64,000 nt of DNA from assembly GCA_034226945.1 (NCBI GenBank), contig CP120460.1, positions 744,001 through 808,000 of the forward strand, read 5' to 3'. Numbering within the stretch: the first letter of the stretch is position 1; every line of letters starts with the position of its first letter. Source of the stretch: Picochlorum sp. SENEW3 (taxonomy: Eukaryota). The notes beneath the pieces are model-generated. The model did no database searches, was not told the DNA's origin, and was given only the letters and a program-made list of their open reading frames with translations. Made by a program: the position numbers and the translations under genes. This document shows, piece by piece, positions 26,600 through 43,440 of this stretch.

Positions 26600-29500
26600 A
26601 TGAATGAGGACGTTTTATCGTCACCTTTATTAGTTTTTTATTCACAATTACATGATGCCATTCGACGGGAGCTTTCAGGCTTGTTCAAGACAGCGTTGTC
26701 CTTGGAAAAGGAGAGTATGCGCCAGGACAGGCGTGTTTCGGCGGTTGACAGCGGGTTAAAGGCATTGAAGGAGCGTTATAAATTCTTGGAAGAGTTGTAC
26801 AAGTATCACAGTAGTATTGAGGATGAAGTGCTGTACCCAGCGTTGGATGACAAGGTTCGAAATGTGACCCTTGCCTACTCTGTGGAGCATGAGGATGAGG
26901 AGCATTTGCTGGAGGAGCTATCGTCAATATTGACATCTGAGAATGCGCTGAAAGGTTTTCGCGAAAATGGTGGTGTTGATGGGCATAGTGATGGAAGCGT
27001 GCATACATCTGAAGGGCTGCATAAGCTTGCACGAAAGGTGGAGGAGGTCCATACCACGCTTACCAAGCATTTGGAAAAGGAGGGGGAGCAGATTTTACCG
27101 TTACTTCAGAATAACTTTAGCATCAATGAGCAGGCAGGGTTGGCGGTTCAATTTTTGTGTTGCATACCATATTCTGCAGTCAAGCCAATGCTTCAGTGGT
27201 TGCTTGGATCATTGTCCAAGGAGGACATGAGAAAGTTGAGCAATCAGATGGCCGAAGCCATCAGTGATCCTTGGCTGAAAAAAGTGATTCATAATTGTTT
27301 GGAACCTCAAGAGGTTGCTGGAGAGTTGAAGGAAGAACATGCTGGCGAGGAGTCGCCGCAAAGGGTTGTTGGAGAACCAAATGAGTTTGTGTGTTGTGGG
27401 TGCAGTCCTTGCACCACTGTAGTTGAGGGGGATATTGAGAATGGTGCACATCATCCTTTGAAAGAAGTGGTGTATTTTCATGAGGCTATTCGGTCAGCTA
27501 TCAGGTCTTTTGCCAAGGAGGCAGCATTGTTGAACAATAATCCTGCAGCGGCAGGAGTCTCATTGGAGCAATTGCAGGGTCTGGCAGAGAGGCATAGATT
27601 CATTAGAGCAGTTTGTCATTTCCATTCAACGTCAGAAGATGAAATATTATTTCCTGCTTTGAACAGGAGTGCTTCCCCTGGGGTTGAGATCAGTCATCAG
27701 TGTGAGGAGGATCATTCCTTGGAGACTGCCAGATTTGAAGCTCTGGGCCGGTTGCTGGGGGATGCCAGGGCTTGTGCGAGGCGTGGAGCGAAAGAGGTAT
27801 CTGAACTTATAGGAGAATTGGCCGAGGTTGCTCAGAAGTTGTCAAAGAGCATGCATGTGCATATGGCAAGGGAAGAGAGTGATATTTTCCCTGCGCTGAT
27901 GGAGAGACTGTGCCCTGCAGAACAAAGATATATTGTTTGGAGGCTTGTGCAGGCGATGCCTTTGCGCTTACTTGAGCGATTTATGCCCTGGATCGCATCA
28001 CAAATTTCCAAAACTGATTTAGATATGTGGCTTTCTGATATGAGGAAAGCCTCTCAGACTGAGCAGAAGCCTCTGGTCGAACTCCTTCGCCAGTGGGCTT
28101 TAAGAAGTATCACTGGCCAAGAATTGGCAAATGAAATGACAGAAAATCCTGCGGCGTATCCTATCAAGACGTGCGGTCCTTCTGAAAGGCACCCATCTGA
28201 CAGAGATTCCATGCCAGAGAGTTTCAGGCACCCAAAGAGAATCAAAACAGGATCAAAAGTTCAGCATGTTTCAGGACAAAAGCTAGACATTGACTCGCCT
28301 GTTGATGAGAACGAGGAGCCCGTGATCTTGATTAATCCAATCGACCATATTTTTCAGTTTCACAAGGCACTGAAGCAGGAACTCAAAGATCTGGAAAAGG
28401 CAGCCCTGCATCTCCAGCGAGAGGCCAGCGCAGCCGAGTCGTGGACCTCGGGTTCTGTCCTCTGTAGCATGATTCCTGACTTGCAAACGAGATTTGAGTT
28501 TCTCAGAGGTATCTACAGGGCTCACTCGAGAGCTGAGGATGAAATTGTCTTCCCAGCACTAGAATCAAAGGAAACTTTGTCAAACGTGAGCCATGCATAC
28601 TCTCTCGACCACAAGCAGGAGGAGCATCTGTTCCAGCAAGTCTCATCTGACGTAGCAGCGGTAGGTGCATGCATGGAGACGTTCAACTTGGAGATTTTGC
28701 GGTCTGCGGCATCAAAGTTATCTAGAATGTGTGCTGCTATCCGCGCTTCGCTCGAAACTCATATTAGGGCGGAAGAGAAAGAATTGTGGCCCTTGTTTAC
28801 GGAGCACTTTACTGTGCAAGAGCAGGAGGAGCTTGTGGGCATCATCATTGGCCAGACAGGAGCAGAGGTTTTGCAGGTGATGCTTTCCTGGGTGACCAAG
28901 TCAATGACTGAGGAGGAAGCAAATGCCATGATGTTCTCATTAAAATCCGCATCAAAATCCACTGCATTTGCAAATTGGTTGGGTGCAGCTCAAGCAAATG
29001 CGTCAAATGGATTAACCAGCAATTCGAATGGAAATGATGTGGGGCACAGCAGCTCTCCTGTGATTGCCATGCAGGAACAAAAGGCAGTTCTGGAAGAAGT
29101 GGCAGCATATCTGGCGAAAAATAATATCTCAGGGCCCAACGCTGCTCCATTGCATCAAAACATTCTCGTTGAACCAACGAGTTTGGATGCAACCCCTTTC
29201 AAACCAGGATGGGAGGATATATTCCGGATGAATCAAAAGCAGCTTGAGAGTGCAGTCAGGCGAGTGTCCGCTGACGATTCTCTTGAACCACAAAGAAAAG
29301 CATATCTGATTCAGCATCTCATGGCCAGTCGCTATATCGTGGCACAGCAAAAGCGAAATCCCGTCTTGTTGAAAGCAAAAGAGCATGGAATGCCTTCAGT
29401 ATCCACACTACGACCAAATAACACTCGTCATGGAAGTCAACAAGCAACAACGTCCCCTCTTGCAAATAGTTCAACTCCATCAGAGTGTACCAAAATGTAT

Positions 29501-30256
29501 CACGACAAGGAGAAGGGCATCCTAGGATGCAAGCATTATGCCAGAAATGCAATGCTTATTGCCCCATGCTGTGACAAAGAATTCACGTGTAGATTATGCC
29601 ATGATGAAAAAGTACTCGATCATAAACTGGATCGGTATCAAGTCAAGGAGATGAGATGCATGTTATGTGGGCTGAGGCAAAACATTAGCAATACGTGCTC
29701 TGGCTGTGGCAGCACCATGGCAGCATACTACTGCAACATATGCCATTTATTCGACAACGATGGCACCAAGGACATTTATCATTGCCCATTCTGCAATTTC
29801 TGCAGACGTGGCAAGGGGCTTGGAATAGACTCTTTTCATTGCATGTCCTGCAATGCATGCATGTCTCTGGAGCTCTTCAATAAGCACAAATGCACCGAAG
29901 CTGCCCTCTCAGGGACATGCCCCGTGTGTTCTGATCCTCTTTTTGAATCAAATACCCCAATCAAAGAACTCCCATGTGGGCATTTCATGCATTCATTGTG
30001 CTTTGGAGCATATGTCAGGTATTCATACACGTGTCCAATCTGTTCAAAATCTCTCGGAGACATGGAAGTGTACTGGAAAATGATTGACGCCATGCTCGCA
30101 TCAGAAAAGCTTCCATATGAATACGCCAAGAGAAAGCAAACCGTGAGGTGCAATGATTGCGGGGCAACATCACAGGCTCCATTCCACTTTGTCTATCACA
30201 AGTGCTCAAGCTGCCATGGGTACAACACAAGAGTATGCCATTCAGAGCATGAATAA
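26600..30256 (+). CDS. BTS: BRUTUS/HRZ-like iron-sensing E3 ligase (3 hemerythrin domains + CHY/CTCHY Zn finger + RING + Zn ribbon)
   Basis: Three H..IR/H...ED..L.PAL/EH/H...E repeats, FKPGWEDIFRMNQ, GCKHYARN..CC..CRLCHD, CPVC..CGHFMH..C..CPIC, CNDC..FHFVYHKC..C..YNT. Confidence 0.93.
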   Translation: MNEDVLSSPLLVFYSQLHDAIRRELSGLFKTALSLEKESMRQDRRVSAVDSGLKALKERYKFLEELYKYHSSIEDEVLYPALDDKVRNVTLAYSVEHEDEEHLLEELSSILTSENALKGFRENGGVDGHSDGSVHTSEGLHKLARKVEEVHTTLTKHLEKEGEQILPLLQNNFSINEQAGLAVQFLCCIPYSAVKPMLQWLLGSLSKEDMRKLSNQMAEAISDPWLKKVIHNCLEPQEVAGELKEEHAGEESPQRVVGEPNEFVCCGCSPCTTVVEGDIENGAHHPLKEVVYFHEAIRSAIRSFAKEAALLNNNPAAAGVSLEQLQGLAERHRFIRAVCHFHSTSEDEILFPALNRSASPGVEISHQCEEDHSLETARFEALGRLLGDARACARRGAKEVSELIGELAEVAQKLSKSMHVHMAREESDIFPALMERLCPAEQRYIVWRLVQAMPLRLLERFMPWIASQISKTDLDMWLSDMRKASQTEQKPLVELLRQWALRSITGQELANEMTENPAAYPIKTCGPSERHPSDRDSMPESFRHPKRIKTGSKVQHVSGQKLDIDSPVDENEEPVILINPIDHIFQFHKALKQELKDLEKAALHLQREASAAESWTSGSVLCSMIPDLQTRFEFLRGIYRAHSRAEDEIVFPALESKETLSNVSHAYSLDHKQEEHLFQQVSSDVAAVGACMETFNLEILRSAASKLSRMCAAIRASLETHIRAEEKELWPLFTEHFTVQEQEELVGIIIGQTGAEVLQVMLSWVTKSMTEEEANAMMFSLKSASKSTAFANWLGAAQANASNGLTSNSNGNDVGHSSSPVIAMQEQKAVLEEVAAYLAKNNISGPNAAPLHQNILVEPTSLDATPFKPGWEDIFRMNQKQLESAVRRVSADDSLEPQRKAYLIQHLMASRYIVAQQKRNPVLLKAKEHGMPSVSTLRPNNTRHGSQQATTSPLANSSTPSECTKMYHDKEKGILGCKHYARNAMLIAPCCDKEFTCRLCHDEKVLDHKLDRYQVKEMRCMLCGLRQNISNTCSGCGSTMAAYYCNICHLFDNDGTKDIYHCPFCNFCRRGKGLGIDSFHCMSCNACMSLELFNKHKCTEAALSGTCPVCSDPLFESNTPIKELPCGHFMHSLCFGAYVRYSYTCPICSKSLGDMEVYWKMIDAMLASEKLPYEYAKRKQTVRCNDCGATSQAPFHFVYHKCSSCHGYNTRVCHSEHE

Positions 30257-32571: not shown

Positions 32572-35319
32572 ATGAACGGACGGTCGTCGGCGAGTGGGTC
32601 CCCTGAGGAGGAACTGCTTTCTTTGCGAGCAGAGGTATGTTACAAGGGCAGCATTGTGGTCTGAAAGATTTATTAATGTTACGTTATGGAGGGATCGGGT
32701 GTATATGCTGCGATTGGTTGGTTGGGTGAACACGAACATGAGCGACATGCGTATTTTGTGCAGGTATCACGGCTGCAAGCTCGAATTCGTACATTAGAAA
32801 GACAACTTGAGGTTAATGAATCAAATAAGGTGGATATTGAGGAGAAGGAATACGTAGCAAAGCGTGTGTCGTCGCACGGGTATGCAGAGGAGGATATTGT
32901 GTGTATGAAACGAAGCGATCTGGAGCTTTTACACCTGAAGGAAAAGGCTATGGATGCTATTCAAGAGGGAATCACTATTGCTGATGCAAAATCCCCGGAC
33001 ATGCCTCTGATTTACATCAATGAAGGATTTTCAAAAATGACTGGATATCCTGTGAAAGAGGTCATGCACAAGAACTGCAGATTTCTGCAAGGCGAAGGGA
33101 CGGATGAGAGCAGTGTAGAGACATTGAAGCGTTCTATCAAGAGAGGAGAGCCGTGTGTGGTTCAACTGACGGTGAGTAGCCTTGTTGTGTTGGTATGTTG
33201 ACGGCCATGTGTTTGATGGTGTATTGTTGTGTAGAATTACAAACGGAGTGGAGACGCATTCATTAATTATCTTAGTTTGACCCCAATACGCGATGATCGG
33301 GGGTCTTTGACGCATTATGTGGGTATTCAGTCGGATATCACAGAGTTGGTTAGGTACAAGCAAGCCCAATTGGCAGCAAAGCATGAAGCATCTCAAGCCG
33401 CTGCTGCAACCGAAGCGAAAAGTCAGTTTTTTAGCCGTATGTCGCATGAAATTCGAACGCCTTTGAACGGCATGATTGCAGTGGGACAGCTGCTTGCTGA
33501 TACAAGGTTGACACCACAGCAGTGGGACCTTGTGAATACCATTCGATGCAGTGGTGAAGCTCTTTTGTCGCTGATTACTGATATATTGGATTTTAGCAAG
33601 ATAGAAGCAAACAAAATGGAATTATTATCGACCCAGTTTTACCTCATGTCGACTGTGGAGGCTGCCATGGAGATAGCAGGGATGCATGCTGCGCAGAAGA
33701 GATTGCACCTTGCATATCACATTGATGATGATGTCCCCCCATTGCTCACTGGAGATCCTCATCGATTGCAACAGATATTGCTCAATATTTTGAATAATGC
33801 AGTGAAATTTACAGACGAGGGTGAGATATTTTTGGAGATTGCTGCAAAGCCATTTCCCCAGAATGCTTCTGTGCAACGGCATCTTCCTCATGGTCCAGGG
33901 TACATTCACTTTAGAGTGAGTGATACTGGCATCGGAATAGATACGAATGATTTGGATAGATTGTTTAGATCATTTTCACAATTAGATGCGACGCCCACGC
34001 GAAAATTCGGTGGCTCTGGGTTGGGGTTGACAATCTCTCAAAAGCTCTGTGAGGCCATGGGAGGAGACATGTGGGCACACTCTGATGGGATTGGCACTGG
34101 CAGTACGTTTGCGTGGAGTGTGAAGCTTCCTGCTCCATTAGATTCAAAGCAGCAGCATGAGCAATACATTCAACCGTATCCATATTCCCCCAATTTAGAG
34201 GTGACATCTGGGAAGAAAGTACTGCTGGTGGAGGCGTCAACGGTAGTCCGCAGTGTAGTGGAGAAATCCTTGCTGACCTGGGGATGCAGAGTTCGCTCAA
34301 TGGCATCGGAAGAAGAAGCGATGAAACTGATAAAAACAGTGCACCAAGATGAGCATGGAATGTCAAATCTATCCTTGAATGACAGCCTTGTCACTGGACC
34401 TTTTGATGTCATCATCATGAGCGTATCACACAAGACGCTGCTATCGAAACTGCTTAAACAAAGACATCCAGAAGAAGCAAGAAGGTGCATACTGCTATCA
34501 TGGCCTGGCCATGTGAATTTGTCAGAAGTCCAGCAAGTCGATCCCCATCATGCAGGGGACAAACATGTAGTCCACAATTTGAACGACTCAAAAGCAGCCA
34601 AGACTCTTTGCCAAAGTGAACACGGTGATTGGAAGGCGCTCGACATCGATAAGGGTCTTGATCCAATATGTCCTGGCAGTCTAGGCTATGTCACCGTATC
34701 AAGGCCTGTACGCCAGGGCAGATTGCAAATGGCACTTCAAGAAGTCCTCCAACTGGACATTGATAGCATGCCATGCGACCACGACCACCATACCACGACA
34801 ACGCCGGATGCAAAATCACCGGAAGTATCTGATCCAGATTGTGACATGCAACAAAGCTTTGCTTCATCAAGCAGTTTGTTGCAGGTGTCTTTAAAGCATG
34901 TTGCATCCAGCAACAGTCTTGTTGACGGCCTTGATTCAGACAACAGTGAGAGACGATTACTCATAGCAGAAGACAATGTTATCAACATGAAAGTAGCAAT
35001 CCGCATTCTAAAACGTTTGGGATTCACTCAGATTGACACGGCAGAGGATGGCATTGAAGCAGTCGCCAAGGTGAAGGAGGCCGGTGGACCAGAATACTAT
35101 CATGCAATTCTCATGGATCTCCACATGCCACGCATGGGTGGCATGGATGCGGTCAAAGAAATCAAATTGCTATTCCCTAATCAATCGACAAAGATCATTG
35201 CCGTCACAGCGGACGCATTTGAAGACACCCGAGACACATGTGTTGCACACGGTTTCACTGGCTGGTTGGCAAAGCCATTCCGAGTGGAAGAATTCGCACG
35301 CATTATGAACGAAAACTAA
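32572..35319 (+). CDS. LOV-domain hybrid histidine kinase (LOV-HisKA-HATPase-degenerate REC-REC), 3 exons
   Basis: Exons 32572-32634, 32764-33171 and 33235-35319, both introns phase 0. LOV motifs NCRFLQG and NYKRSG..F.N, H-box MSHEIRTPLNG, N-box NAVKFT, G1 DTGIG, G2 GGSGLGL, REC AEDNVIN..MDLHMP..KP. Confidence 0.92.
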
Positions 35320-35409: not shown

Positions 35410-35811
35410 TCAAGTCAACCCCGGCCATCCTCTTGTTGGCAATGGTGGCAAATTGATGGACCTGCTCCCAGAGCATCCACATATCGTATCAATTGTATTC
35501 AACCGCACGGACTGCATCGCAGACGCATCTTCTCCAGAACAAAAGCATGCAGACACCTGCTCCCACTGACTCGAATGACGCAAATTACAGCACTGATCTG
35601 GCTGGAAGTCAACGTCACTGCATGCTGATACCAACGTCTGACTCGCCAAAGCCTTCTCTGCTGATGACAATGACGCACATACTGCAGCAGCATTTGGACT
35701 GCAAGTACCACATTGTAACAATGCGCGCCCTTGTACAGTGGAGGATGGCAACACGAGGAACGCGAGGAACCAAATACTGGCCTGTACTGTCCAGCTCGGA
35801 CGCCACTCCAT
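35410..35811 (-). CDS. Small secreted Cys-rich protein (10 Cys, CC..CxC pattern)
   Basis: Signal peptide, RALLQ pro-site-like motif, C-x2-C-x7-C-x18-C-x9-CC-x13-CxC-x19-CxC. Confidence 0.7.
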   Translation of the reverse strand: MEWRPSWTVQASIWFLAFLVLPSSTVQGRALLQCGTCSPNAAAVCASLSSAEKALASQTLVSACSDVDFQPDQCCNLRHSSQWEQVSACFCSGEDASAMQSVRLNTIDTICGCSGSRSINLPPLPTRGWPGLT

Positions 35812-36675
35812 GGACAGATGCTCTATTCTCGTCAGCCTTTATCCAATAAATATACTATAGTTTGAGACACAACCAATCGTATCAATCAAAAACCTCTCTC
35901 TTCTACCCACGGACTGCCAGTCTATTTGCCAATCCTTGCTCAACAACTCCAACTCACGCAGAGTCGTACTATTCGCAAGGAACGGTATTCCAAGACAAAC
36001 GAGAGATATTATTATTACGTTTGGATTTCCAAACGAGACGCCATGTAATTCGAATTCTACTACTGCCCCGACTCGCTCGATGCGTCGGTCAGCTCTTGGA
36101 ATGATTTCCCACGTGTCCTAGGACGCTTCGATCTGTCCAAGAACCCCACAGTTGACCACCTAGAACTCAAAGAACCACCATTCTTTTCATGATATATGCT
36201 TTTGCACGTATGCATGGCCTGTACAGAGTCTGTCGGATGATGTCTCGGTGCCATGCAGCGCCATGACACTCATGCACGATGGGAGATTGGTGGAGTGCAG
36301 ATTCGAATGCTGACAGCTCCCGCGACTTGGGAAGCCAAGATCAGCTGCTAGAGGATTCTGAGTCCGTGTTGCATGAAATGAATACGAATGCCTCCCAATG
36401 ACTGGTTTGGAAGTTAATACGACATAAGAATTGTAAACAGTATGCTCTAGAGACGAGCAGGTATCGTGCGACGTATCCTTCGTGGTTCGGACCGACAACA
36501 GAAGCGACGAGGTATGGCGCATTTCTGCATCTTATGGTGCAGTTGGATGGAATTCTGATGGATATTTTGATATTTTAGGAAACGAGAGAGTGAGCGGGTG
36601 ATGGTGTCGACGTGTGTGGGTTTGACGGAAGAGGGGCGCGAGGCGTAGGCGTTTTCTTCTGCGATAGTATTTGAT

Positions 36676-39600
36676 ATGGTCTACCAATGCCACGAGGGCT
36701 GTGGATTGACAGCACGGTTGATAGTATGTATCTTCTTGTTGAGTGCTGTCTGTCAGCAGCAGCCTGCTCGTGCGAGGAGTTTGCATGGTGCCAAGGGACT
36801 GAGCATCGGTCGTCCCAAGGACATGTCTGCTCCTCATAATAAGGATGTGGTATTTGGTAGAAAGCTGCTGCAGGGTGTGACTGCGTCTCCACAATGTTTG
36901 TTAAAGGTGAATTATACGGTGAATTCTGTGAAAGGGAATGATCAGTATTATTTGTCCAAGTTTTGGTTGGGAGGAGTGGATACCAACGTGACTGCATGGA
37001 GATTTGGTGTCGTATTCCCCGATGGAGACTATATTCGAGATCAGAACGAGTTGATCGGTACCGATGTGGTGCTGGTGAGGAATGGGAGCGCGCCTGTATT
37101 TGGATCTTCACCAACAGAGTATATTGCTCCAGACAACCCTGTGTTTTTCACGTTTCTTCAGTCAATTGGAGAGAATGGGACCCAGCCAAAGCCAGTAGAG
37201 AAAATGATGTTCAACAATTTGTGGTGTTCTCTTGGATCGACTGCGAGTGGAACTGCGGTTGATCAGCAGACAAATGTGTCGACAGAGGTCCCACAGTTGG
37301 TGACCTTGAATTACTTGCCGATCGACTATAGGGACGTAAAATATAACGGCATTACTGAATTTTATATAAAGCTACAGAATGTTCAGAGATACTCATCGAT
37401 TTCGTTAGGAGATTTGAAACTGGTGTATTACTTCCATGGCATGACAGAGCCTCCTGTGAGTGTGTTGAACAATCCTAATGCATTCTTTGACGTCACCTGT
37501 CGTCAATGGGAGAAGAGCGATTGTAATGGAATCAGGCTTGATATTGTGAAGGCGTATCCGGATGAAAGTGGTGCTCAATTTGCTGTAGAAATTACATTTA
37601 ATGAGGATGCAGGATTGTTGCTTCCAAGGCCATCTGGGCAGCAGGATGCATTTTTTGATACAAGTGATCCAAGGATACGAGATGAATTGGGATTTCAACT
37701 TTCTTTGACTCCAAATGCGTTCACAGGTTTTGCATTGAATGAGACCCTGGATTATTCGTACATGATGGCGCCAGAGTTTACAAGTGCACCAGTGAATACA
37801 ACTATCATTCCGAGGTTTGAGGTGAAGAACGATAGGATTCCAGTCTATTTACAGGATCAGTTGATATGGGGTGTACTTCCAGAGAGTGGACAGAATACGG
37901 TCGATGAGCAGGTAGCAGCTAATTCATCGTCGTATGTTTGTGTCAATGGGACACAGTGCGAATTCACTGCTGTATACTGCTGTACTCCCATTAACGCATC
38001 GGATGAGGAGATTTCGACAACGATTCCTGCGTTTTGGAAGGGAGATTGGAGTAGCATTACTATAGATACCAATGATACTGTAGATCCGCCCATGAATGAT
38101 ACGACCTCGTCCATTTTTGACACCACAGAGTCGAGTATTGCATGGGTGGTTGGGCTCGTGGTTGGTCTGGTTAGTGGAGTTCTGATCCTCTTTGGTGGCT
38201 TTCTCTTGTGGCGGAGCAGAAGAAGAAATGGATTTAGTGGGAAAGGCAAGAAAATTGTGGATACATGTCCATCATCACCTGGGGGTAATAGGTCAAGCCA
38301 GGATACCCTTGATACAAGTGATTTGTCATGGGTGATTCCAATCCACCGCAGGTTGGGATCTGATGTGGTTAATAGTGACATGACGATAACGCCTATATCA
38401 TCGCAGAGATCTGTCTCAATATCTGGTGCACTCTTAAAAGCCCAGTCTCTTCCTACTGATACTCGGTTGACGGGAAATTCTGCATCAAGTGAGCAACAGG
38501 GTATGGAAGGATTGTCTCCAAAATCTCCTTCACACCCGAGCGTCTTTGGATACTCTGGAGTAGGCCCTTTGCCACCGAATGTAGATCAGCTTGTAGATTC
38601 AAAGTGCCTGACAATATCGTCTAGAATTAACTGTAGCTCAAGCGAAGCATGTGATGATAATGACATGGATGTAGATGAGGAATTCGTGATTGAGGATTGG
38701 CAGCTGAAGCGTAATAAATCATGGGATGGATTTTTGCACACTGCGTACGAGTCAGATAGTAAAAATGCAGCTCATAGAATTAGAAGAAGGAGACAGCAAG
38801 GTGGTGGCCGGCTAAACACTGTGCTACCACCTCTGTCACCATTACCTCCACCAATGTTTGGAGATGATGAGACAAATGGTATAGACCTGCACATTCCTCC
38901 AGCTGTCATCGAAAAGCATTTAGGAAAGTGCTTGGGAACTGGTGGTTTTGGAGCTGTATACGAAGGAAAATACAAGGGTAAACCGGTCGCTGTGAAAAAG
39001 CTGCCTTCTTTCGTGAGATTGTCTTCTGGAGATGAACAGAATGGTCAAGCTGCATACGAGGCATTGATCAGAGAAATCAAATTGGCATCAAAATTCGATT
39101 GTGAGAGGTTGGTCAAGGTATTTGGGGCATGCACTGATGATAAAAACAAATGTTGTTTAGTCATGGAACTCATGAGAGGTGGAAATTTATACCAGCGCAT
39201 TCACGACCGGAACAGGCGTCGTTTGACATATATTGAAATTCTGCAGCTCATCCATGACATCGCTGAAGGACTAGCATACTTGCATCCATTTGTCATACAT
39301 AGAGACTTGAAGCCTCAAAACATTCTTTTGGATGACGAGGGACGTGCAAAGATTGCCGATTTTGGAATTTCCAAGGTGAAGGACCCTGCAAAGAGTTACC
39401 TCACACAAATGACTGCAGAGAATGGCACGCCCATGTACATGTCTCCAGAGCAAATGAATGGTGGAAAAGTGGATGAAAAGGTAGATGTGTATGCTTTAGG
39501 ATGCATACTTAACGAAATGTACACACGGCGTCAGCCGTGGAAGGATTCCAACCACTTTTTCCAAATCATTCTGAAAGTGGCTGTGAATGGAGACCGGCCG

Positions 39601-39798
39601 TGGGTGGATCCTGACACGCCAGAGCCATTGAAGCGCCTCATCAAGAAATGCTGGCACCAAGACCCCCATCAGCGCCCATCATGTGCAGAGATCATGCGTA
39701 GAACAGATATTCTGATCCAAGAAGAACTCATGCGATGGGAAACAATTGGAATGTCCCAAGCAATACAAAGTTCAAAAAAAGCAATAGTACATGTGTAA
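36676..39798 (+). CDS. Single-pass receptor-like TKL kinase with CBM2-like and CBM3-like ectodomain
   Basis: Signal peptide and TM (IAWVVGLVVGLVSGVLILFGGFLLW-RSRRR). Kinase motifs GTGGFG, VAVK, HRDLKPQN, DFG, GTPMYMSPE, DVYALG. Ectodomain motifs are described in the findings. Confidence 0.88.
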   Translation: MVYQCHEGCGLTARLIVCIFLLSAVCQQQPARARSLHGAKGLSIGRPKDMSAPHNKDVVFGRKLLQGVTASPQCLLKVNYTVNSVKGNDQYYLSKFWLGGVDTNVTAWRFGVVFPDGDYIRDQNELIGTDVVLVRNGSAPVFGSSPTEYIAPDNPVFFTFLQSIGENGTQPKPVEKMMFNNLWCSLGSTASGTAVDQQTNVSTEVPQLVTLNYLPIDYRDVKYNGITEFYIKLQNVQRYSSISLGDLKLVYYFHGMTEPPVSVLNNPNAFFDVTCRQWEKSDCNGIRLDIVKAYPDESGAQFAVEITFNEDAGLLLPRPSGQQDAFFDTSDPRIRDELGFQLSLTPNAFTGFALNETLDYSYMMAPEFTSAPVNTTIIPRFEVKNDRIPVYLQDQLIWGVLPESGQNTVDEQVAANSSSYVCVNGTQCEFTAVYCCTPINASDEEISTTIPAFWKGDWSSITIDTNDTVDPPMNDTTSSIFDTTESSIAWVVGLVVGLVSGVLILFGGFLLWRSRRRNGFSGKGKKIVDTCPSSPGGNRSSQDTLDTSDLSWVIPIHRRLGSDVVNSDMTITPISSQRSVSISGALLKAQSLPTDTRLTGNSASSEQQGMEGLSPKSPSHPSVFGYSGVGPLPPNVDQLVDSKCLTISSRINCSSSEACDDNDMDVDEEFVIEDWQLKRNKSWDGFLHTAYESDSKNAAHRIRRRRQQGGGRLNTVLPPLSPLPPPMFGDDETNGIDLHIPPAVIEKHLGKCLGTGGFGAVYEGKYKGKPVAVKKLPSFVRLSSGDEQNGQAAYEALIREIKLASKFDCERLVKVFGACTDDKNKCCLVMELMRGGNLYQRIHDRNRRRLTYIEILQLIHDIAEGLAYLHPFVIHRDLKPQNILLDDEGRAKIADFGISKVKDPAKSYLTQMTAENGTPMYMSPEQMNGGKVDEKVDVYALGCILNEMYTRRQPWKDSNHFFQIILKVAVNGDRPWVDPDTPEPLKRLIKKCWHQDPHQRPSCAEIMRRTDILIQEELMRWETIGMSQAIQSSKKAIVHV

Positions 39799-39804
39799 CT
39801 GCGA

Positions 39805-41367
39805 CTACTTTACAAAAATTGCTACAAAAAATCCATCAGTACCATCTTCTATAGGGTCTACTCTCAAAACCTTTCTGGCCTCACCAGCAGGCAGAATGTC
39901 TTCTTGTCTTTCTTCCTGCTGGAGAACCAGCCCTCTCCGAGGCCAGGAGGGGAATACCTCTGCCACATGAAACCCATGCTCCTTTGCAAACTCCAAAACA
40001 TGAGCAACGACACCCTCATTTTCTTCATAATAAATACTGCACGTTGAATACACAATCTTCTTTACGTTTGGAAACGACATGGCATGCTGAATTACTGAGA
40101 TTTGAAACTGCTTTAAGGACAGCACACGCTCATCCACATGCATGACTCCTCTCTGAGACACATGTTGACTAGAATTTGGGAGTAAATAGTCCATTCTTGA
40201 CACTGCAGTCCCACTGCCACTGCATGATGGGTCAAGCAGTATGGCATCCACTCGAGCAAACTCACTAGGGTCTGCCTCTAGAAAATCTCGACACGAGGGT
40301 TCTATTATGGAAGTCGTACCAGTGAGTGCGACATTTTTCTTCAATATCTCCAACCTTCGCGTATCTTTGTCAAATGCAAATACTTTTCCACGAACATCAG
40401 AAGTGCCTGTTGCTTTATGTGACATGATTGCAGCCAGGTGTGTCGTCTTGTTCCCTGGAGCTGCACAGGCATCAATGACATGCCAATGTGGCTCCGGATC
40501 CAACACAGAAGCAGGAATACATGATGCCAAACTTTGAAGAACAACATTTCCGCTCCGAACTAAAGTATGCGAATGCAAATCGCTCCCTGGATCCAATTCA
40601 ATAACATCAGGCAGATGCTCAGAAATACTCACCGATTGGAATTCTTCCATCAACTGATTCTTCACCTCTTCCACGGATACCTTTGCCAAATTTACTCGCA
40701 ATGTTCTTTTTCTCTTTGCTGCTGCCACCATCAACTCATTCTGTGGCAGCATGTCGGCCACACTCTGTACACCAGACTGTTCTACCAGATTTGAGAGCTC
40801 CCTCTTCAATTCCTCCTCCTTCTCCAGCACCAGTCTTTCCGCACGGCCAATCCGCGATATACCATCTCCCAAGACAATCTCTCTAACAAGTACACACAAG
40901 GTTGCCTCAGACATACCCCCAAAATCACCCCTGAAAACCTCATTGACCAAACTCTTGAGCACACTGTAGTACTTTAACGTCTCAACCGTCACAGCATACA
41001 CTGCCTTTTTCTGTCGAACATTCTTCCCAAGAGTCAAAGATTTAAGCGACACCCCATGTTTCCCTGTTGCATCCGCCTCGACAAGCCTCCCTATAGCATA
41101 TGCAGCCTGTCGAAGAATATCAGACTGTGCAAGTGTATACTGATGCGATCTTGACCGACCCTCAGAGCTTTTTCCCACCTTTGAAACTGAACTACCTTTA
41201 TGAGACGTATACGAGGCAGACCTTTGCTTCTTTACCTTCTTCCCAGGTGTGGGCACACCTCCTTTTCCCCCACCAGTTAGAGTACCTCCTCCAGTTGTGC
41301 TGTTCGGAAAAGACCCATTCCCCTTCCTTTTCCCCAGAATACTGGTCTTCTTCTTTCTCTTTCTCAT
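39805..41367 (-). CDS. NSUN5: NSUN5/Rcm1-like rRNA (cytosine-C5) methyltransferase
   Basis: LQSLASCIPA, IDACAAPGNKTTH, LLDPSCSGSG, VYSTCSI...ENE, TDGFFVA. Start position uncertain. Confidence 0.87.
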   Translation of the reverse strand: MRKRKKKTSILGKRKGNGSFPNSTTGGGTLTGGGKGGVPTPGKKVKKQRSASYTSHKGSSVSKVGKSSEGRSRSHQYTLAQSDILRQAAYAIGRLVEADATGKHGVSLKSLTLGKNVRQKKAVYAVTVETLKYYSVLKSLVNEVFRGDFGGMSEATLCVLVREIVLGDGISRIGRAERLVLEKEEELKRELSNLVEQSGVQSVADMLPQNELMVAAAKRKRTLRVNLAKVSVEEVKNQLMEEFQSVSISEHLPDVIELDPGSDLHSHTLVRSGNVVLQSLASCIPASVLDPEPHWHVIDACAAPGNKTTHLAAIMSHKATGTSDVRGKVFAFDKDTRRLEILKKNVALTGTTSIIEPSCRDFLEADPSEFARVDAILLDPSCSGSGTAVSRMDYLLPNSSQHVSQRGVMHVDERVLSLKQFQISVIQHAMSFPNVKKIVYSTCSIYYEENEGVVAHVLEFAKEHGFHVAEVFPSWPRRGLVLQQEERQEDILPAGEARKVLRVDPIEDGTDGFFVAIFVK

Positions 41368-41756: not shown

Positions 41757-43440
41757 ATGGCGATAGTTTGTAAGGGATTGGTATTGCTCGCCTCGATGCT
41801 GGTCTCAGCTGTACTCGCTCAGGAGCAGGGGGACGCAGCGTCTACGGCACCATCCTACTCGACATGCCAGAGACAGTTTTTAGACGCATTGATCCCTGTT
41901 GGAAGAAATGCATCGGCTCCCATGGTTGATTTGATCGATCCAGATACCCCCGAGCAGGATTGTATAAAAAGGCTATGCTTGGGTGACTATGCAACCTGTG
42001 ATCCAATTGCAAACAATGCAAACGACATCCCATACTCGGACATGATACTCGTCTTTTCTGACGAATTCAATACCGATGGGAGAGAATTTGGAGTGAAAGC
42101 GAGGGACCCGCGATGGACTGCAGAGGATATTTATTACTTCCCAACACAGGATATAGAAGTGTACAAACCAGAGCAGGTCACAACATCAGGTTCGTTGGTA
42201 TCTCGGATACTCTGCAGTCATGATCATCATAACAGTATGACTTTTTTAAAATATACATGCAGGTGGCCATGCAACCATCACCATGGAAAAGTTACGAAAG
42301 CCAGAGCATGCCATCAGTTTGCAGCCTAATGGGGAGAAATGGGATGTGGCAAAGAATTTCAAGAGTGGGATGGTGAACTCATGGAATAAGTTTTGCTTTA
42401 CTGGAGGATACATGGAAATGAATGTCAAGATGCCAGGAGATGACAAAGTTCCAGGTTTATGGCCAGCCTTTTGGGCCATGGGGAATCTGGGTAGAGCAGG
42501 ATATATGCCATCCACGGGAGGATTTTGGCCATACTCGTACAACGAATGTGGAAAAGGATCGAATTCATCAAGCACCATACCAGGGTCTCTTGTACCAGAT
42601 CAACGAGTGAGTGCATGCCAACTCAGCCCAGAGGACCCTGGGTACGTGAACAGATCCCGGTATGGTTTTGAAGAAGGAAAAGCCAGAAACTCACCAGAAT
42701 TCGACGTATTCGAGGTGGTTGTCGTACGAGACATTGGATCAGAAACGAGTCAAACATTACAAATGGCCCCTCTTGTACCACAAGGAACATCATGGGCTGA
42801 TTTAGACTGGTATGTCCAAGATGGCGTACCAGAGGGTGTCGCATACCCAGGCGGTATTTCATTCCTCCGCACTGAAGGTAATCAGTGGCAGGGCCGATGG
42901 GGAAGACCAGGTAATGAATACCAAGACTCTCTATCTGCCATATCCCACCTCAACAGTACATTTTATGATTCATACCACACCTTTGGTGTCGACTGGGACC
43001 CAGGAAACTATCTAAGATGGTATGTGGATGGATTGTTTGCATACGAAATAAACGCAAACGCACTGCGAGAAATGACAGGCAATGTCAGCGGAGAATTCAT
43101 TACTATCGGAGAGAGAATGATCCCTATGGAACCCATGTACATGATTTTCAACCTGGGAATGTCAAGAGACTTTGGAGAAGTCGACATTGAAAACCTGCAG
43201 TTCCCAGCAGAGATGGACATTGATTACATTAGAGTCTATCAGAGACCAGACAAGGTGAATGTCGGATGCGATCCCCCAGATTATCCGACATCCCAGTGGA
43301 TTGCGTGTCATAAGAATGATTTTATGACGAATCCAGACGATGAGATTCTCTTTGACGAATGCCTGTCCCGTGCCTTCGCCCCCAGCACCGTGACAACCAT
43401 GATGATTGCATTGCTCTCCATTGTATTGTTCTTTTTCTAA
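41757..43440 (+). CDS. KRE6/SKN1-like GH16 beta-glucan transglycosylase, 2 exons
   Basis: Intron 42190-42262. LVFSDEFN, SGMVNSWNKFCFTGG, GLWPAFWAMGNLGRAGY, WPYSY, PEFDVFE, IP.EPMY.I.NLG.S, FPA.M.IDYIRVYQ, CDPPDYPT. Signal peptide and hydrophobic C-terminus. Confidence 0.9.

What the first reader, a model, noticed from the sequence alone, without database searches (positions are those of the whole stretch)
36676..39798. Receptor kinase with tandem bacterial-type cellulose-binding modules (CBM2 + CBM3): candidate algal cell-wall integrity sensor
Seen: signal peptide, ~410-aa ectodomain, one TM helix and a catalytically intact TKL kinase. The first ectodomain module (~36895-37227; CLLKVNYTV..VTAWRFGVVFPDG..IAPDNPVFFTF..FNNLWC) follows the CBM2 pattern: terminal Cys pair, Y-x-V, W-x-F, iaP..v.F.F, lN..C. 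The second (~37350-37875; FYIKLQN..ISLGDLKLVYYF..LDYSY..NDRIPVY..QLIWG) follows the CBM3 pattern: N...i.L.dl...YYF, DYS, N..i.vY....L.WG. Knowledge: CBM2/CBM3 are typical of microbial cellulases and cellulosomes, whereas land-plant wall sensors use malectin, WAK or LRR ectodomains on RLK/Pelle kinases. Inference: this is an independently assembled polysaccharide-sensing receptor kinase.
Basis: partly seen in the sequence, partly recalled or inferred. Interest (0 to 1): 0.85.

Follow-up and report, generated by a model that had tools for sequence, protein, structure and literature searches.

The report
Green-algal receptor kinase with CBM2–CBM3 ectodomain
This is an expressed green-algal membrane receptor kinase whose outer part is built from two bacterial-type carbohydrate-binding folds (CBM2-like and CBM3-like); relatives occur across many green algae and were listed in a 2026 survey, but what it binds is unknown.

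Summary
Window 36676-39798 (+) is one 1040-aa ORF: an N-terminal hydrophobic leader, a ~455-aa ectodomain, one TM helix (aa 488-512) and an intact TKL-type Ser/Thr kinase.

The domain guess is also right at the level of fold and homology:
- Module 2 (aa ~204-404) is CBM3-like: family profile vs PDB E=1.2e-14; VIA Z 18.1.
- Module 1 (aa 74-187) is CBM2-like: profile E=2e-5; Z ~10; Pfam CBM_2 above cut-off in 3 of 68 relatives.

The window protein itself hits neither Pfam model.

It belongs to a conserved orthogroup of core chlorophytes (Chlorella, Micractinium, Auxenochlorella, Prototheca, Coccomyxa, Tetradesmus, Pleodorina, Acetabularia). A near-identical strain yields a contig with a spliced 5'-UTR.

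Two caveats:
- The residues that bind crystalline cellulose in model CBM2a and CBM3a modules are mostly not conserved, so the ligand is open.
- Orthologues with CBM_2/CBM_3 annotations already appear in the supplements of Marciano et al. 2026 (PMC12757656), uncharacterised.

Verdict: a real, interesting but already catalogued kind, and a plausible glycan-sensing receptor kinase.

The parts
36472..36509 (+). 5' UTR exon seen in an RNA-type contig of a near-identical strain (the contig begins here behind adapter letters, so the true 5' end may lie further upstream)
   Evidence: run X10 record 1, pieces 36472-36509 and 36577-38471
36510..36576 (+). 67-nt GT..AG intron in the 5' UTR
   Evidence: table 5: joint 36509->36577, skips 67, ends GT..AG, depth 262. 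An in-frame stop lies just before 36649, so the intron does not extend the ORF.
36676..39798 (+). Coding sequence, 1040 aa plus stop, single exon
   Evidence: Contigs of X10 cover 36577-38471, 38473-39376 and 39347-39702 with no joint inside the CDS.
36676..36765 (+). Probable signal peptide (hydrophobic core about aa 8-26; cleavage site not predicted with a dedicated tool)
   Evidence: hydropathy windows; sequence
36895..37227 (+). Module 1: divergent CBM2-like beta-sandwich, aa 74-184, bounded by invariant Cys74 and Cys184
   Evidence: Family profile vs PDB: 6qfs_A E=2.1e-5 and 1exg_A 6.4e-5, and again 8.9e-4 and 1.3e-3 with a module-only profile. VIA: 6qfs_A Z 10.1, rmsd 2.3 A, 102 of 104 residues; 3ndy_E Z 9.9 and 1exg_A Z 8.9. 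Foldseek: 6qfs_B E=1.1e-4. Pfam CBM_2 is above the cut-off in relatives P0007, P0060 and P0072.
37228..37284 (+). Inter-module linker, low model confidence
   Evidence: pLDDT below 50 at model residues 130-145 (aa 189-204)
37285..37887 (+). Module 2: divergent CBM3-like beta-sandwich, aa ~204-404, with the conserved Cys275-Cys283 loop, the YYF, DYSY and IPVY..LIWG motifs
   Evidence: Profile vs PDB: 6d5b_A E=1.2e-14, 2wnx 1.7e-10, 3zqw 3.3e-10, 4b97 1.1e-9. Foldseek: 4b97 E=7.7e-9, TMt 0.80. VIA: 2wo4 Z 18.1, rmsd 2.3 A, 155 of 159 residues; 4b97 Z 17.8, 149 of 151 residues, model 148-343.
37915..38055 (+). Cys-rich membrane-proximal stalk (C422, C428, C435, C436; family motif C..C.L.A.YCC), predicted beta-hairpin, no known family
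   Evidence: A1 invariant or near-invariant Cys columns; strands at model 359-364 and 368-379; only a weak TIG hit, E 0.026
38137..38211 (+). Single transmembrane helix, aa 488-512, followed by RSRRR
38212..38919 (+). Long cytoplasmic juxtamembrane region, mostly low complexity, with short motifs shared with P0003 (for example DLSWVIPIH, GVGPLP.NVDQL, EDWQL.R.KSWDG)
   Evidence: comparison by eye; not analysed further
38920..39699 (+). Ser/Thr protein kinase domain (TKL-type, RD kinase, all catalytic motifs present)
   Evidence: Pfam Pkinase aa 749-1008, E=2.1e-54. Best solved relatives: TAK1 132.6 bits, CTR1 124.9, CERK1 105.7, IRAK4 96.5.

Best explanation
The gene encodes a type-I single-pass receptor Ser/Thr kinase of a trebouxiophyte-like green alga. 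The order of parts is: signal peptide, a CBM2-like beta-sandwich, a CBM3-like beta-sandwich, a small Cys-rich stalk, one TM helix, a long disordered juxtamembrane region, and an active TKL-type kinase.

Shown here:
- The architecture.
- Homology and fold of both modules to bacterial CBM2 and CBM3.
- Membership in a conserved orthogroup spread over core chlorophytes.
- A spliced-5'-UTR contig in a near-identical strain, which is evidence of transcription.
- Mostly synonymous strain differences.

Inferred:
- The tandem CBM-like ectodomain binds an extracellular glycan polymer, most likely a component of the alga's own wall.
- Binding does not use the classical flat aromatic face for crystalline cellulose.
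- Occupancy, clustering or mechanical load on the ectodomain changes kinase activity and starts a phospho-relay. That would make it a wall-status or polysaccharide sensor.
- It is functionally analogous to the CBM3-bearing RsgI anti-sigma sensors of Clostridium thermocellum, but with a eukaryotic kinase output.
For: Architecture.

CBM3 homology:
- Profile of 19 family ectodomains vs PDB gives 19 CBM3 chains, best E=1.2e-14. This includes the C-terminal VY..G.LVWG stretch.
- The AlphaFold model has mean pLDDT 81.2.
- Foldseek: 29 hits at E<=1e-3, and every listed row down to rank 36 is a CBM3 module or a GH9-CBM3c enzyme. The top hit is the RsgI-like biomass-sensing module 4b97.
- VIA Z is 15.5-18.1 for rows 1-19, which cover essentially whole CBM3 chains.

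CBM2 homology:
- Profile E=2.1e-5 and 6.4e-5 to C. fimi Cex CBM2a, reproduced with a module-only profile of 13 sequences.
- Pfam CBM_2 is above its gathering score in 3 of 68 relatives scanned (26.2, 27.7 and 25.4 bits vs 24).
- The module-1 model has pLDDT 86.8. Its best matches are CBM2 modules and chitinase C-terminal domains (not checked for family), Z 9.9-8.9.
- The language-model atlas also ranks CBM_3 and then CBM_2 clusters first (a lead only).

Conservation:
- The ectodomain search finds 31 relatives.
- The kinase search finds 129 proteins at E<=1e-40. Of the 108 new proteins fetched, 46 carry module 2 and 30 carry both modules.
- Named members are all chlorophytes.
- All 34 two-module rows fall in one kinase clade of 50 rows (SH-aLRT 96). 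Its branching follows algal classes.

Expression and constraint:
- An X10 contig joins 36509 to 36577 across a GT..AG gap and runs on into the CDS.
- 20 synonymous vs 10 non-synonymous among the 30 listed strain differences.

Precedent for CBM3 as a transmembrane sensor module: RsgI papers (search listing and abstract starts only) and the PDB titles of 4b97, 4b9p and 4b9c.
Against: - No binding was tested.
- The window protein itself gives no Pfam CBM hit even at E<=10. CBM_3 never reaches its gathering score in any of the 68 relatives (best 22.0 vs 22.4).
- CBM2 triad: the positions aligned to Trp54 and Trp72 of Cex CBM2a are non-aromatic in 13 of 13 family members. The window has N124 and P146 there. 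Trp17 lies outside the aligned stretch. These residues are named as cellulose-binding in PMC11272768 (passage read).
- CBM3 strip (mapping inferred): among 79 family proteins, the Arg112-equivalent position is mostly hydrophobic, with Arg not among the eight commonest residues listed. The Trp118-equivalent is mostly Gly. Only the Asp56/His57-equivalent pair is often kept, as E/D and W (window Q277, W278).
- Among the closest structural matches is the 3b' module of Cel9V (2wo4). That this module does not bind cellulose is recalled, not checked here.
- For module 1, the margin over generic beta-sandwiches is small: Z 9.9 against 8.7-8.0 for unrelated rows.
- The family also occurs in algae whose walls are said to lack cellulose. 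An example is a Chlamydomonas species; the wall statement comes from a passage of PMC12757656.
Confidence: 0.55

Rival explanations
1. Strict first-reader version. The ectodomain binds crystalline or amorphous cellulose of the alga's own wall in the way CBM2a and CBM3a do, and the protein is a cellulose-specific wall-integrity sensor.
For: Both modules are homologous to cellulose-binding families. The best fold match, 4b97, is titled a biomass-sensing module. An E/D-W pair at the position inferred to equal CipA Asp56/His57 is present in many members, and the window has W278.
Against: Two of the three CBM2a triad positions are non-aromatic in 13 of 13 members, and the third is unaligned. The Arg112- and Trp118-equivalent positions of the CBM3a strip are not kept (mapping inferred). 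CBM2 and CBM3 families also hold chitin- and xylan-binding members, for example 2rtt and 2xbd among the matches. That some members bind nothing is recalled. The orthogroup occurs in lineages with very different walls.
Confidence: 0.15
2. The CBM folds have lost sugar binding and serve as a scaffold for a non-glycan ligand. This could be a wall glycoprotein, a secreted peptide, or homo- or hetero-dimerisation. The protein would then be a receptor kinase for a proteinaceous cue.
For: Canonical aromatic binding residues are largely absent. The sequences are so diverged that Pfam models mostly miss them. Module 1 also resembles generic adhesin, macroglobulin and cohesin sandwiches at Z 7-8.7. Nested in the same kinase clade are receptors with a different ectodomain, PF03382.
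Against: The tandem of two different carbohydrate-binding folds is kept together in 34 of the 93 tree rows, across algal classes. One Chlamydomonas member adds CBM_14 chitin-binding domains, 49.9 bits. Both facts fit a glycan theme.
Confidence: 0.25
3. The receptor senses foreign polysaccharide (from bacteria, fungi, grazers or detritus) rather than the alga's own wall. It would be an innate-immunity or nutrient-cue receptor.
For: The modules are of bacterial enzyme type. The closest working analogue, RsgI, senses external biomass. PMC12757656 raises this possibility for algal RLK carbohydrate modules in general (passage).
Against: Nothing in the data separates own-wall from foreign ligands. 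The wide, low-copy conservation fits a housekeeping role at least as well.
Confidence: 0.1
4. The ORF is an annotation artefact, a pseudogene or a recent bacterial insertion.
For: Only the absence of direct Pfam CBM hits in the window protein.
Against: The frame is intact over 1040 codons. A spliced-UTR contig is evidence of transcription. Strain differences are 20 synonymous to 10 non-synonymous. Orthologues exist in many chlorophyte genomes and transcriptomes. Synteny with NSUN5 and SKN1/KRE6 is kept in L001.
Confidence: 0.02

Closest known systems
Chlorophyte receptor-like kinases with CBM_2/CBM_3-annotated ectodomains, catalogued by Marciano et al. 2026 (PMC12757656), e.g. Auxenochlorella protothecoides A0A087SE27 (= P0013 here) and Coccomyxa sp. 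Obi A0A8J9SA59
   Same: Same orthogroup. P0013 is an ectodomain hit of the window protein and 62% identical in the kinase. It sits in the same kinase clade. The paper's Table S5 labels its ectodomain CBM_2 (42-108) and CBM_3 (142-212). Table S2 gives fold matches to RsgI4 and to a crystalline-cellulose-binding endoglucanase module. The paper proposes algal RLKs with such modules as putative wall-integrity sensors (abstract and passages).
   Different: The window protein is from another, unnamed alga and is not in that table: its FNNLWC motif was searched and gave 0 hits. In the passages I searched, the main text mentions 'cellulose-binding modules' only once. I found no passage that treats the CBM2+CBM3 tandem as a conserved family, tests binding residues or gives any experiment. 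I searched the supplements by terms and did not read them in full.
RsgI anti-sigma-I factors of Clostridium thermocellum with extracellular CBM3 sensing modules (PDB 4b97, 4b9p, 4b9c)
   Same: A CBM3-fold module is displayed outside the membrane on a single-pass protein and used as a sensor. 4b97 is the best Foldseek match (E=7.7e-9) and among the best VIA matches (Z 17.8, 149 of 151 residues).
   Different: Bacterial. Opposite topology (recalled). The output is release of a sigma factor after proteolysis (abstracts), not phosphorylation. There is no CBM2 module and no kinase. This is an analogue in how it works, not a family member.
CBM3 modules of cellulosomal scaffoldins and GH9 cellulases (CipA CBM3a 1nbc; ScaA CBM3b 3zqw; Cel9V CBM3b' 2wo4)
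   Same: Same fold and detectable sequence homology. Shared motifs are L..YYF/YWF, DYS(F/Y) and VY..G.LVWG.
   Different: 16-26% identity. Below the Pfam gathering score. An extra disulfide loop (C275-C283) and insertions with low model confidence are present. Most of the CipA planar-strip positions are not kept (mapping inferred). The module is fused to a eukaryotic kinase rather than to an enzyme or scaffoldin.
CBM2a of Cellulomonas fimi Cex (1exg, 6qfs) and other CBM2 modules (EngD 3ndy; Chi18aC 2rtt)
   Same: Same fold, with about 100 of about 105 residues superposed at 2.3-3.0 A. The W-x-L-x-F-x-FP core motif is shared, and terminal Cys residues are conserved in the family.
   Different: At least two of the three aromatic-triad positions are not aromatic. 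Identity is 13-19%.
Land-plant wall sensors of the RLK/Pelle family (malectin-like CrRLK1L such as FERONIA, WAKs, LRR-RLKs) and the LysM kinase CERK1
   Same: Single-pass receptor kinases with a wall- or glycan-facing ectodomain.
   Different: The ectodomain folds differ. The kinase scores higher against TAK1/CTR1 than against CERK1/IRAK4. The two land-plant RLK rows in the tree lie outside the clade (quick tree, midpoint root, biased sampling).

Membership tests
CBM2 (Pfam PF00553 CBM_2) | Scores at or above the Pfam gathering cut-off (24 bits) | tested here: not met
   The window protein and its module 1 alone give no CBM_2 hit at E<=10. Three of 68 relatives pass: P0007 26.2, P0060 27.7, P0072 25.4. 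Six more are below threshold at 16.4-22.0 bits.
CBM2 | Sequence homology to solved CBM2 modules by profile search | tested here: met
   A1 profile: 6qfs_A E=2.1e-5, 1exg_A 6.4e-5. Module-only A4 profile: 8.9e-4, 1.3e-3, and 2rtt 0.011. A 3-sequence profile failed.
CBM2 | CBM2 beta-sandwich fold | tested here: met
   6qfs_A Z 10.1, rmsd 2.3 A, 102 of 104 residues. 3ndy_E Z 9.9, 1exg_A Z 8.9. Foldseek 6qfs_B E=1.1e-4, TMt 0.70. The margin over unrelated sandwiches (Z 8.7-8.0) is small.
CBM2 type A (cellulose-binding) | Surface aromatic triad (Cex Trp17, Trp54, Trp72; PMC11272768 passage; the triad concept is in bioRxiv 10.64898/2026.10.13.758739, passage) | tested here: not met
   Positions aligned to Trp54 and Trp72 are non-aromatic in 13 of 13 family members (window N124, P146). 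Trp17 is outside the aligned stretch. A Phe three residues after the Trp54 position is present in 8 of 13 but not in the window. A Tyr three residues after the Trp72 position is present in 4 of 13, including the window (Y149).
CBM3 (Pfam PF00942 CBM_3) | Scores at or above the Pfam gathering cut-off (22.4 bits) | tested here: not met
   No hit for the window protein. None of 68 relatives passes; the best is 22.0 bits (P0105). Sub-threshold hits occur in 10 of 31 (E<=0.1) and 7 of 37 (E<=0.01), and P0003 scores 13.9.
CBM3 | Sequence homology to solved CBM3 modules by profile search, including the C-terminal VY..G.L.WG strand | tested here: met
   19 CBM3 sequences at E<=10. Best: 6d5b_A 1.2e-14, 2wnx 1.7e-10, 3zqw 3.3e-10, 4b97 1.1e-9. 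A second stretch at profile 317-339 aligns to the chain C-terminus.
CBM3 | CBM3 nine-stranded beta-sandwich fold | tested here: met
   VIA Z 18.1 (2wo4, 155 of 159 residues, rmsd 2.3 A), 17.8 (4b97), 16.2 (1nbc). Foldseek TMt 0.64-0.81 for ranks 1-27.
CBM3a/b (cellulose-binding) | Planar strip: CipA Asp56, His57, Tyr67, Arg112, Trp118 (PMC11272768 passage) | tested here: inconclusive
   No tool aligned CipA over these residues. The mapping was inferred from the 1nbc range (profile 163-191 = chain 19-46) and the 3zqw alignment. On that mapping, across 79 family proteins: Asp56 position E/D in 41; His57 position W/Y in 31 (window Q277, W278); Arg112 position L/I/F/V; Trp118 position mostly Gly. 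The Tyr67 loop was not mapped.
TKL-group protein kinase | Active eukaryotic protein kinase domain whose closest relatives are TKL kinases | tested here: met
   Pkinase E=2.1e-54 and PK_Tyr_Ser-Thr 1e-50. Catalytic motifs are present. The best PDB matches are TAK1, CTR1, MLK4, CERK1, DLK, RIPK1, TNNI3K and IRAK4. That these belong to the TKL group is established knowledge, recalled. No kinome-classification HMM library was available.
RLK/Pelle (IRAK) family of land plants | Kinase domain nests within the RLK/Pelle clade | tested here: inconclusive
   Lower scores to CERK1/IRAK4 than to TAK1/CTR1. The Nyssa and Oryza RLK rows lie outside the 50-row clade. However, the tree is quick, midpoint-rooted and built only from the query's own best hits.
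Receptor-like kinase as defined in PMC12757656 (signal peptide, ectodomain, one TM, cytoplasmic kinase) | Topology | tested here: met
   Orthologue P0013 = A0A087SE27 is in their Table S1.
RsgI anti-sigma factors | N-terminal anti-sigma domain and periplasmic autoproteolytic domain | tested here: not met
   Pfam finds only kinase families in the window protein. The resemblance is functional, limited to the CBM3 sensor module.

The most novel reading that the evidence does not exclude
A tandem of bacterial-derived CBM2 and CBM3 modules was fused to a TKL kinase before the core chlorophytes diverged. It has been kept ever since as a principal wall-polysaccharide sensor of green algae. It would be convergent with the RsgI sensors of cellulolytic clostridia and with land-plant wall-integrity kinases. 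Its re-shaped binding faces would read a non-cellulosic or non-crystalline wall glycan, for example a chitin-like, mannan or beta-glucan polymer.
Probability: 0.3. Interest if true: 0.7.

Novelty: new member of a known kind. Interest (0 to 1): 0.45.

Why it matters
How green algae sense the state of their very diverse cell walls is largely unknown. Land-plant wall sensors use different ectodomains on RLK/Pelle kinases. This gene belongs to a conserved chlorophyte receptor-kinase orthogroup that carries two carbohydrate-binding folds otherwise typical of bacterial cellulases. That makes it a concrete, testable candidate for an algal wall or polysaccharide sensor, and a eukaryotic parallel to the bacterial RsgI CBM3 sensors.

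The family is present in tractable or industrial algae such as Chlorella, Auxenochlorella and Coccomyxa. What tempers this is that the architecture has already been listed in a 2026 survey. The classical cellulose-binding residues are also mostly missing, so the ligand is an open question rather than a given.

Tried and rejected
- Direct Pfam scans of the window protein and of its three ectodomain pieces gave no CBM hit.
- Single-sequence phmmer vs PDB gave only a weak CBM3 hit (4b97, E 0.027). The stronger hits, to BenM, were spurious.
- No whole genome is held for the window, and there were no earlier scan notes.
- A sub-range reference for protein ids is not accepted.
- The search for related loci with alignment A1 failed for lack of a conserved stretch. 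With the window ectodomain it found nothing in metagenome contigs. With the kinase it gave 39 loci, of which only L001-L004 (76-88% identical in the kinase) look like the family, L003 and L004 being partial. I read L001 and L002.
- A 3-sequence module-1 profile (A3) did not reach any CBM2 chain; its only hit was ribosomal protein L27 at E 0.026, taken as chance.
- Model coordinates are not exposed. Surface exposure of aromatic residues could therefore not be computed, and residue mapping rests on HMM alignments.
- CipA (1nbc) was not aligned over its strip residues by any search.
- Parts of the gene without cover in runs X17, X19 and X20, and the small-share RNA runs X19 (0.16) and X20 (0.07), are not used as evidence of expression or habitat.
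- Literature searches for 'CBM3 + receptor kinase + alga' and 'cellulose-binding + receptor kinase + Chlorophyta + Chlorella' found only PMC12757656 as relevant.
- Complex prediction was not used, because no protein-protein binding is claimed.

Full report
WHAT IS THERE. Window 36676-39798 (+) is one uninterrupted ORF of 1040 codons. Hydropathy shows an N-terminal hydrophobic leader (aa 8-26) and one strong TM segment (aa 488-512) followed by RSRRR. The stretch between them holds 12 N-x-S/T sequons. Its cysteines lie at 74/184, 275/283 and 422/428/435/436. Pfam finds only a protein kinase domain, at aa 749-1008 (E=2e-54). GTGGFGAV, VAVKK, HRDLKPQN, DFG and SPE are all present. The window is gene-dense at about 46% G+C.

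THE GENE IS REAL AND USED. Near-identical DNA is held by 18 run rows with at least half of the sampled words. In run X10 one contig starts at 36472, jumps from 36509 to 36577 across a 67-nt GT..AG gap, and continues through the first 1.9 kb of the CDS. X10's library type is only guessed to be RNA. Further contigs cover the rest of the CDS with no joint. That is a spliced 5' UTR, so the sequence is transcribed in that strain. An in-frame stop just before 36649 means the intron does not lengthen the protein. Of the 30 CDS differences listed for that strain, 20 are synonymous and 10 are not. A relative's contig (L001) keeps the order kinase, then NSUN5 (convergent), then SKN1/KRE6.

THE ECTODOMAIN.
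- The window protein gives no Pfam CBM hit. Alone it gives only E=0.027 to one CBM3 structure.
- An exhaustive HMMER search with aa 60-480 found 31 relatives.
- Pfam on these relatives gave CBM_2 above its cut-off in P0007 (26.2 vs 24 bits). It also gave sub-threshold CBM_3 hits in 10 of 31.
- A profile of 19 aligned ectodomains (A1) was searched against all PDB sequences. It returned 22 hits at E<=10: 19 CBM3 modules (best 1.2e-14), 2 CBM2 modules (C. fimi Cex, 2.1e-5 and 6.4e-5) and one unrelated hit at E 0.88.
- The AlphaFold model of aa 60-480 has mean pLDDT 81.2. Two confident beta-sandwiches are joined by a low-confidence linker.
- Foldseek gave 29 hits at E<=1e-3. All listed rows to rank 36 are CBM3 modules or GH9-CBM3c enzymes, headed by the RsgI-like 'biomass sensing' module 4b97 (E=7.7e-9, TMt 0.80). 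The CBM2 chain 6qfs_B is at rank 43.
- VIA-align places the CBM3 chains on model residues ~145-345 (aa ~204-404). Z is 15.5-18.1 and nearly whole chains are covered.
- It places the CBM2 chains on model residues 16-128 (aa 75-187): 6qfs_A Z 10.1, rmsd 2.3 A, 102 of 104 residues; 3ndy_E Z 9.7.
- Module 1 folded alone has pLDDT 86.8. It again finds CBM2 modules and chitinase C-terminal domains first: Foldseek 1.1e-4; VIA-wide 3ndy_E 9.9, 1exg 8.9. The margin over generic sandwiches (Z 8.7-8.0) is small.
- A module-1-only profile of 13 sequences (A4) hits only CBM2 chains: 6qfs 8.9e-4, 1exg 1.3e-3, 2rtt 0.011, 3ndy 0.92.

Between CBM3 and the membrane lies a conserved four-Cys stalk with no known family.

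ARE THE SUGAR-BINDING FACES KEPT? A review names Trp17, Trp54 and Trp72 as the cellulose-binding residues of Cex CBM2a. It names Trp118, Arg112, Asp56, His57 and Tyr67 for CipA CBM3 (PMC11272768, passage read). A preprint describes the CBM2 'aromatic triad' (passages).

For CBM2, the HMM alignment to 1exg puts Trp54 and Trp72 on profile positions 62 and 86. At both positions 13 of 13 family members are non-aromatic (window N124, P146). Trp17 lies outside the aligned stretch. A nearby Phe is kept in the Chlorella-type members, and a nearby Tyr in the window's subgroup (Y149).

For CBM3, no call aligned CipA across its strip. I inferred the mapping from the 1nbc range and from the 3zqw alignment. 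On that mapping, across 79 family proteins:
- the Asp56 position is E/D in 41;
- the His57 position is W/Y in 31 (window Q277, W278);
- the Arg112 position is hydrophobic (window F326);
- the Trp118 position is mostly Gly.

The classical flat face for crystalline cellulose is therefore mostly not conserved. The ligand cannot be assumed to be cellulose.

THE KINASE AND THE FAMILY. The best solved relatives of the kinase are TAK1 (132.6 bits) and CTR1 (124.9). These score ahead of CERK1 (105.7) and IRAK4 (96.5), so the kinase is TKL-type and not demonstrably RLK/Pelle.

A search with the kinase region found 129 proteins at E<=1e-40. Of the 108 new proteins fetched, 46 carry module 2 and 30 carry both modules. 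This was judged with HMMs built from A1, so it tests family membership, not CBM identity.

Named members are all green algae: Micractinium, Chlorella vulgaris and C. variabilis, Myrmecia bisecta, Prototheca, Auxenochlorella, Helicosporidium, Coccomyxa, Tetradesmus, Pleodorina, Chlamydomonas sp. UWO241 and Acetabularia. The closest named kinases are 68-70% identical (Chlorellales). Unnamed ones reach 88%.

Pfam on 37 more relatives gave CBM_2 above cut-off in P0060 and P0072. CBM_3 was never above cut-off; the best was 22.0 vs 22.4.

I built a quick IQ-TREE of 93 kinase domains. These came from 102 proteins with at least 230 aligned positions, after dropping near-identical cluster members. The tree puts all 34 two-module proteins in one clade of 50 rows (SH-aLRT 96). 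Acetabularia, Chlorophyceae and Trebouxiophyceae branch in that order. The 11 rows in that clade without the modules are fragments, a Tetraselmis group, and four proteins with a PF03382 ectodomain. The land-plant RLK rows lie outside. The tree is midpoint-rooted and sampled from the query's own hits, so it supports an old, vertically inherited orthogroup but does not settle its deeper origin.

WHAT IS ALREADY IN PRINT. Full-text searches found one relevant paper: Marciano et al., Physiol Plant 2026 (PMC12757656). I read the outline, the abstract, passages found by term, and term searches in supplementary file 2. I did not read the whole text. The paper catalogues 736 putative RLKs in 34 chlorophytes and proposes them as possible wall-integrity sensors.
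- The main text mentions 'cellulose-binding modules' once.
- Table S1 contains the orthologues A0A087SE27, A0A1D1ZQR8 and A0A3M7KU95 (Auxenochlorella) and A0A8J9SA59 (Coccomyxa sp. Obi).
- Table S5 labels A0A087SE27 with CBM_2 (42-108) and CBM_3 (142-212).
- Table S2 gives its aa 154-338 a fold match to the RsgI4 sensing domain.

The architecture is thus catalogued but not characterised. I found no passage that treats the tandem as a conserved family or examines binding residues. The window's own protein is not in the table.

HOW IT MOST LIKELY WORKS. It is a type-I receptor kinase. The CBM2-like and CBM3-like pair, held off the membrane by a disulfide-rich stalk, contacts an extracellular glycan polymer, most plausibly of the alga's own wall. 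Changes in occupancy, clustering or load alter the activity of the cytoplasmic TKL kinase. This part is inferred. The closest working analogue is the bacterial RsgI system, in which a CBM3 outside the membrane reports polysaccharide to a sigma factor (listing and abstract starts; PDB titles). I put about 0.55 on glycan sensing in general. I put about 0.15 on classical cellulose binding and about 0.25 on a non-glycan ligand.

VERDICT. This is a new member of a known but uncharacterised kind, of moderate interest.

Noticed in passing
window 36510-36576: A 67-nt GT..AG intron sits in the 5' UTR of the receptor-kinase gene, seen as a joint in one high-depth contig of run X10. Contigs of run X19, laid at 90-99% likeness, cover the donor side (36200-36524) and part of the intron (from 36533) without the joint.
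   Followed up: partly
window 39798-39805: The kinase gene and the convergent NSUN5-like methyltransferase gene (39805-41367, minus strand) have stop codons only 6 nt apart, so their 3' UTRs must overlap. The same convergent pair is kept in L001 (4778-7939 + and 7976-9433 -).
   Followed up: partly
window 42283-43440; L001 10004-11599: An SKN1/KRE6-type GH16 beta-glucan synthesis protein lies two genes downstream. The window ORF is 385 aa and matches only profile positions 181-478. The L001 orthologue is 531 aa and matches 51-479. The window gene may therefore have an upstream exon or another start. The order kinase-NSUN5-KRE6 is kept in L001.
   Followed up: partly
window 33439-35319 and 35410-35811: Immediately upstream lie a hybrid histidine kinase (HisKA, HATPase_c, receiver; + strand) and a 133-aa Cys-rich ORF with an N-terminal hydrophobic leader and no Pfam hit (- strand). 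In L001 the upstream neighbour is instead an MscS-like channel with EF-hands.
   Followed up: no
window 26600-30256: A 1218-aa protein with three hemerythrin stretches, a CHY zinc finger, a RING and a zinc ribbon. That this matches the BRUTUS-type iron-sensing E3 ligase architecture is recalled.
   Followed up: no
window 55957-58164 (-): A fusion of a histidine-specific methyltransferase, DinB_2 and an FGE-sulfatase domain. The resemblance to Egt1 of ergothioneine synthesis is recalled.
   Followed up: no
proteins P0073, P0074, P0075, P0078: Four kinases nested inside the window's nearest kinase subclade (62-64% identical) carry PF03382 instead of the CBM modules. This suggests an ectodomain swap on the same kinase, on a long branch (0.4).
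   Followed up: partly
proteins P0101, P0103-P0105, P0107, P0108, P0119, P0123: A second group of 8 kinases has only the CBM3-like module. In the quick tree it sits apart from the main clade, next to Chloropicon-type LRR kinases, with weak support (81-83).
   Followed up: partly
protein P0032 (Chlamydomonas sp. UWO241, KAG1668435.1): This family member also carries CBM_14 chitin-binding peritrophin-A domains (49.9 bits) between the CBM3-like module and the membrane.
   Followed up: no
protein P0082 (Coccomyxa subellipsoidea C-169): The 1579-aa gene model has an N-terminal HLH DNA-binding domain in front of the receptor kinase. This is probably two genes merged in the annotation.
   Followed up: no
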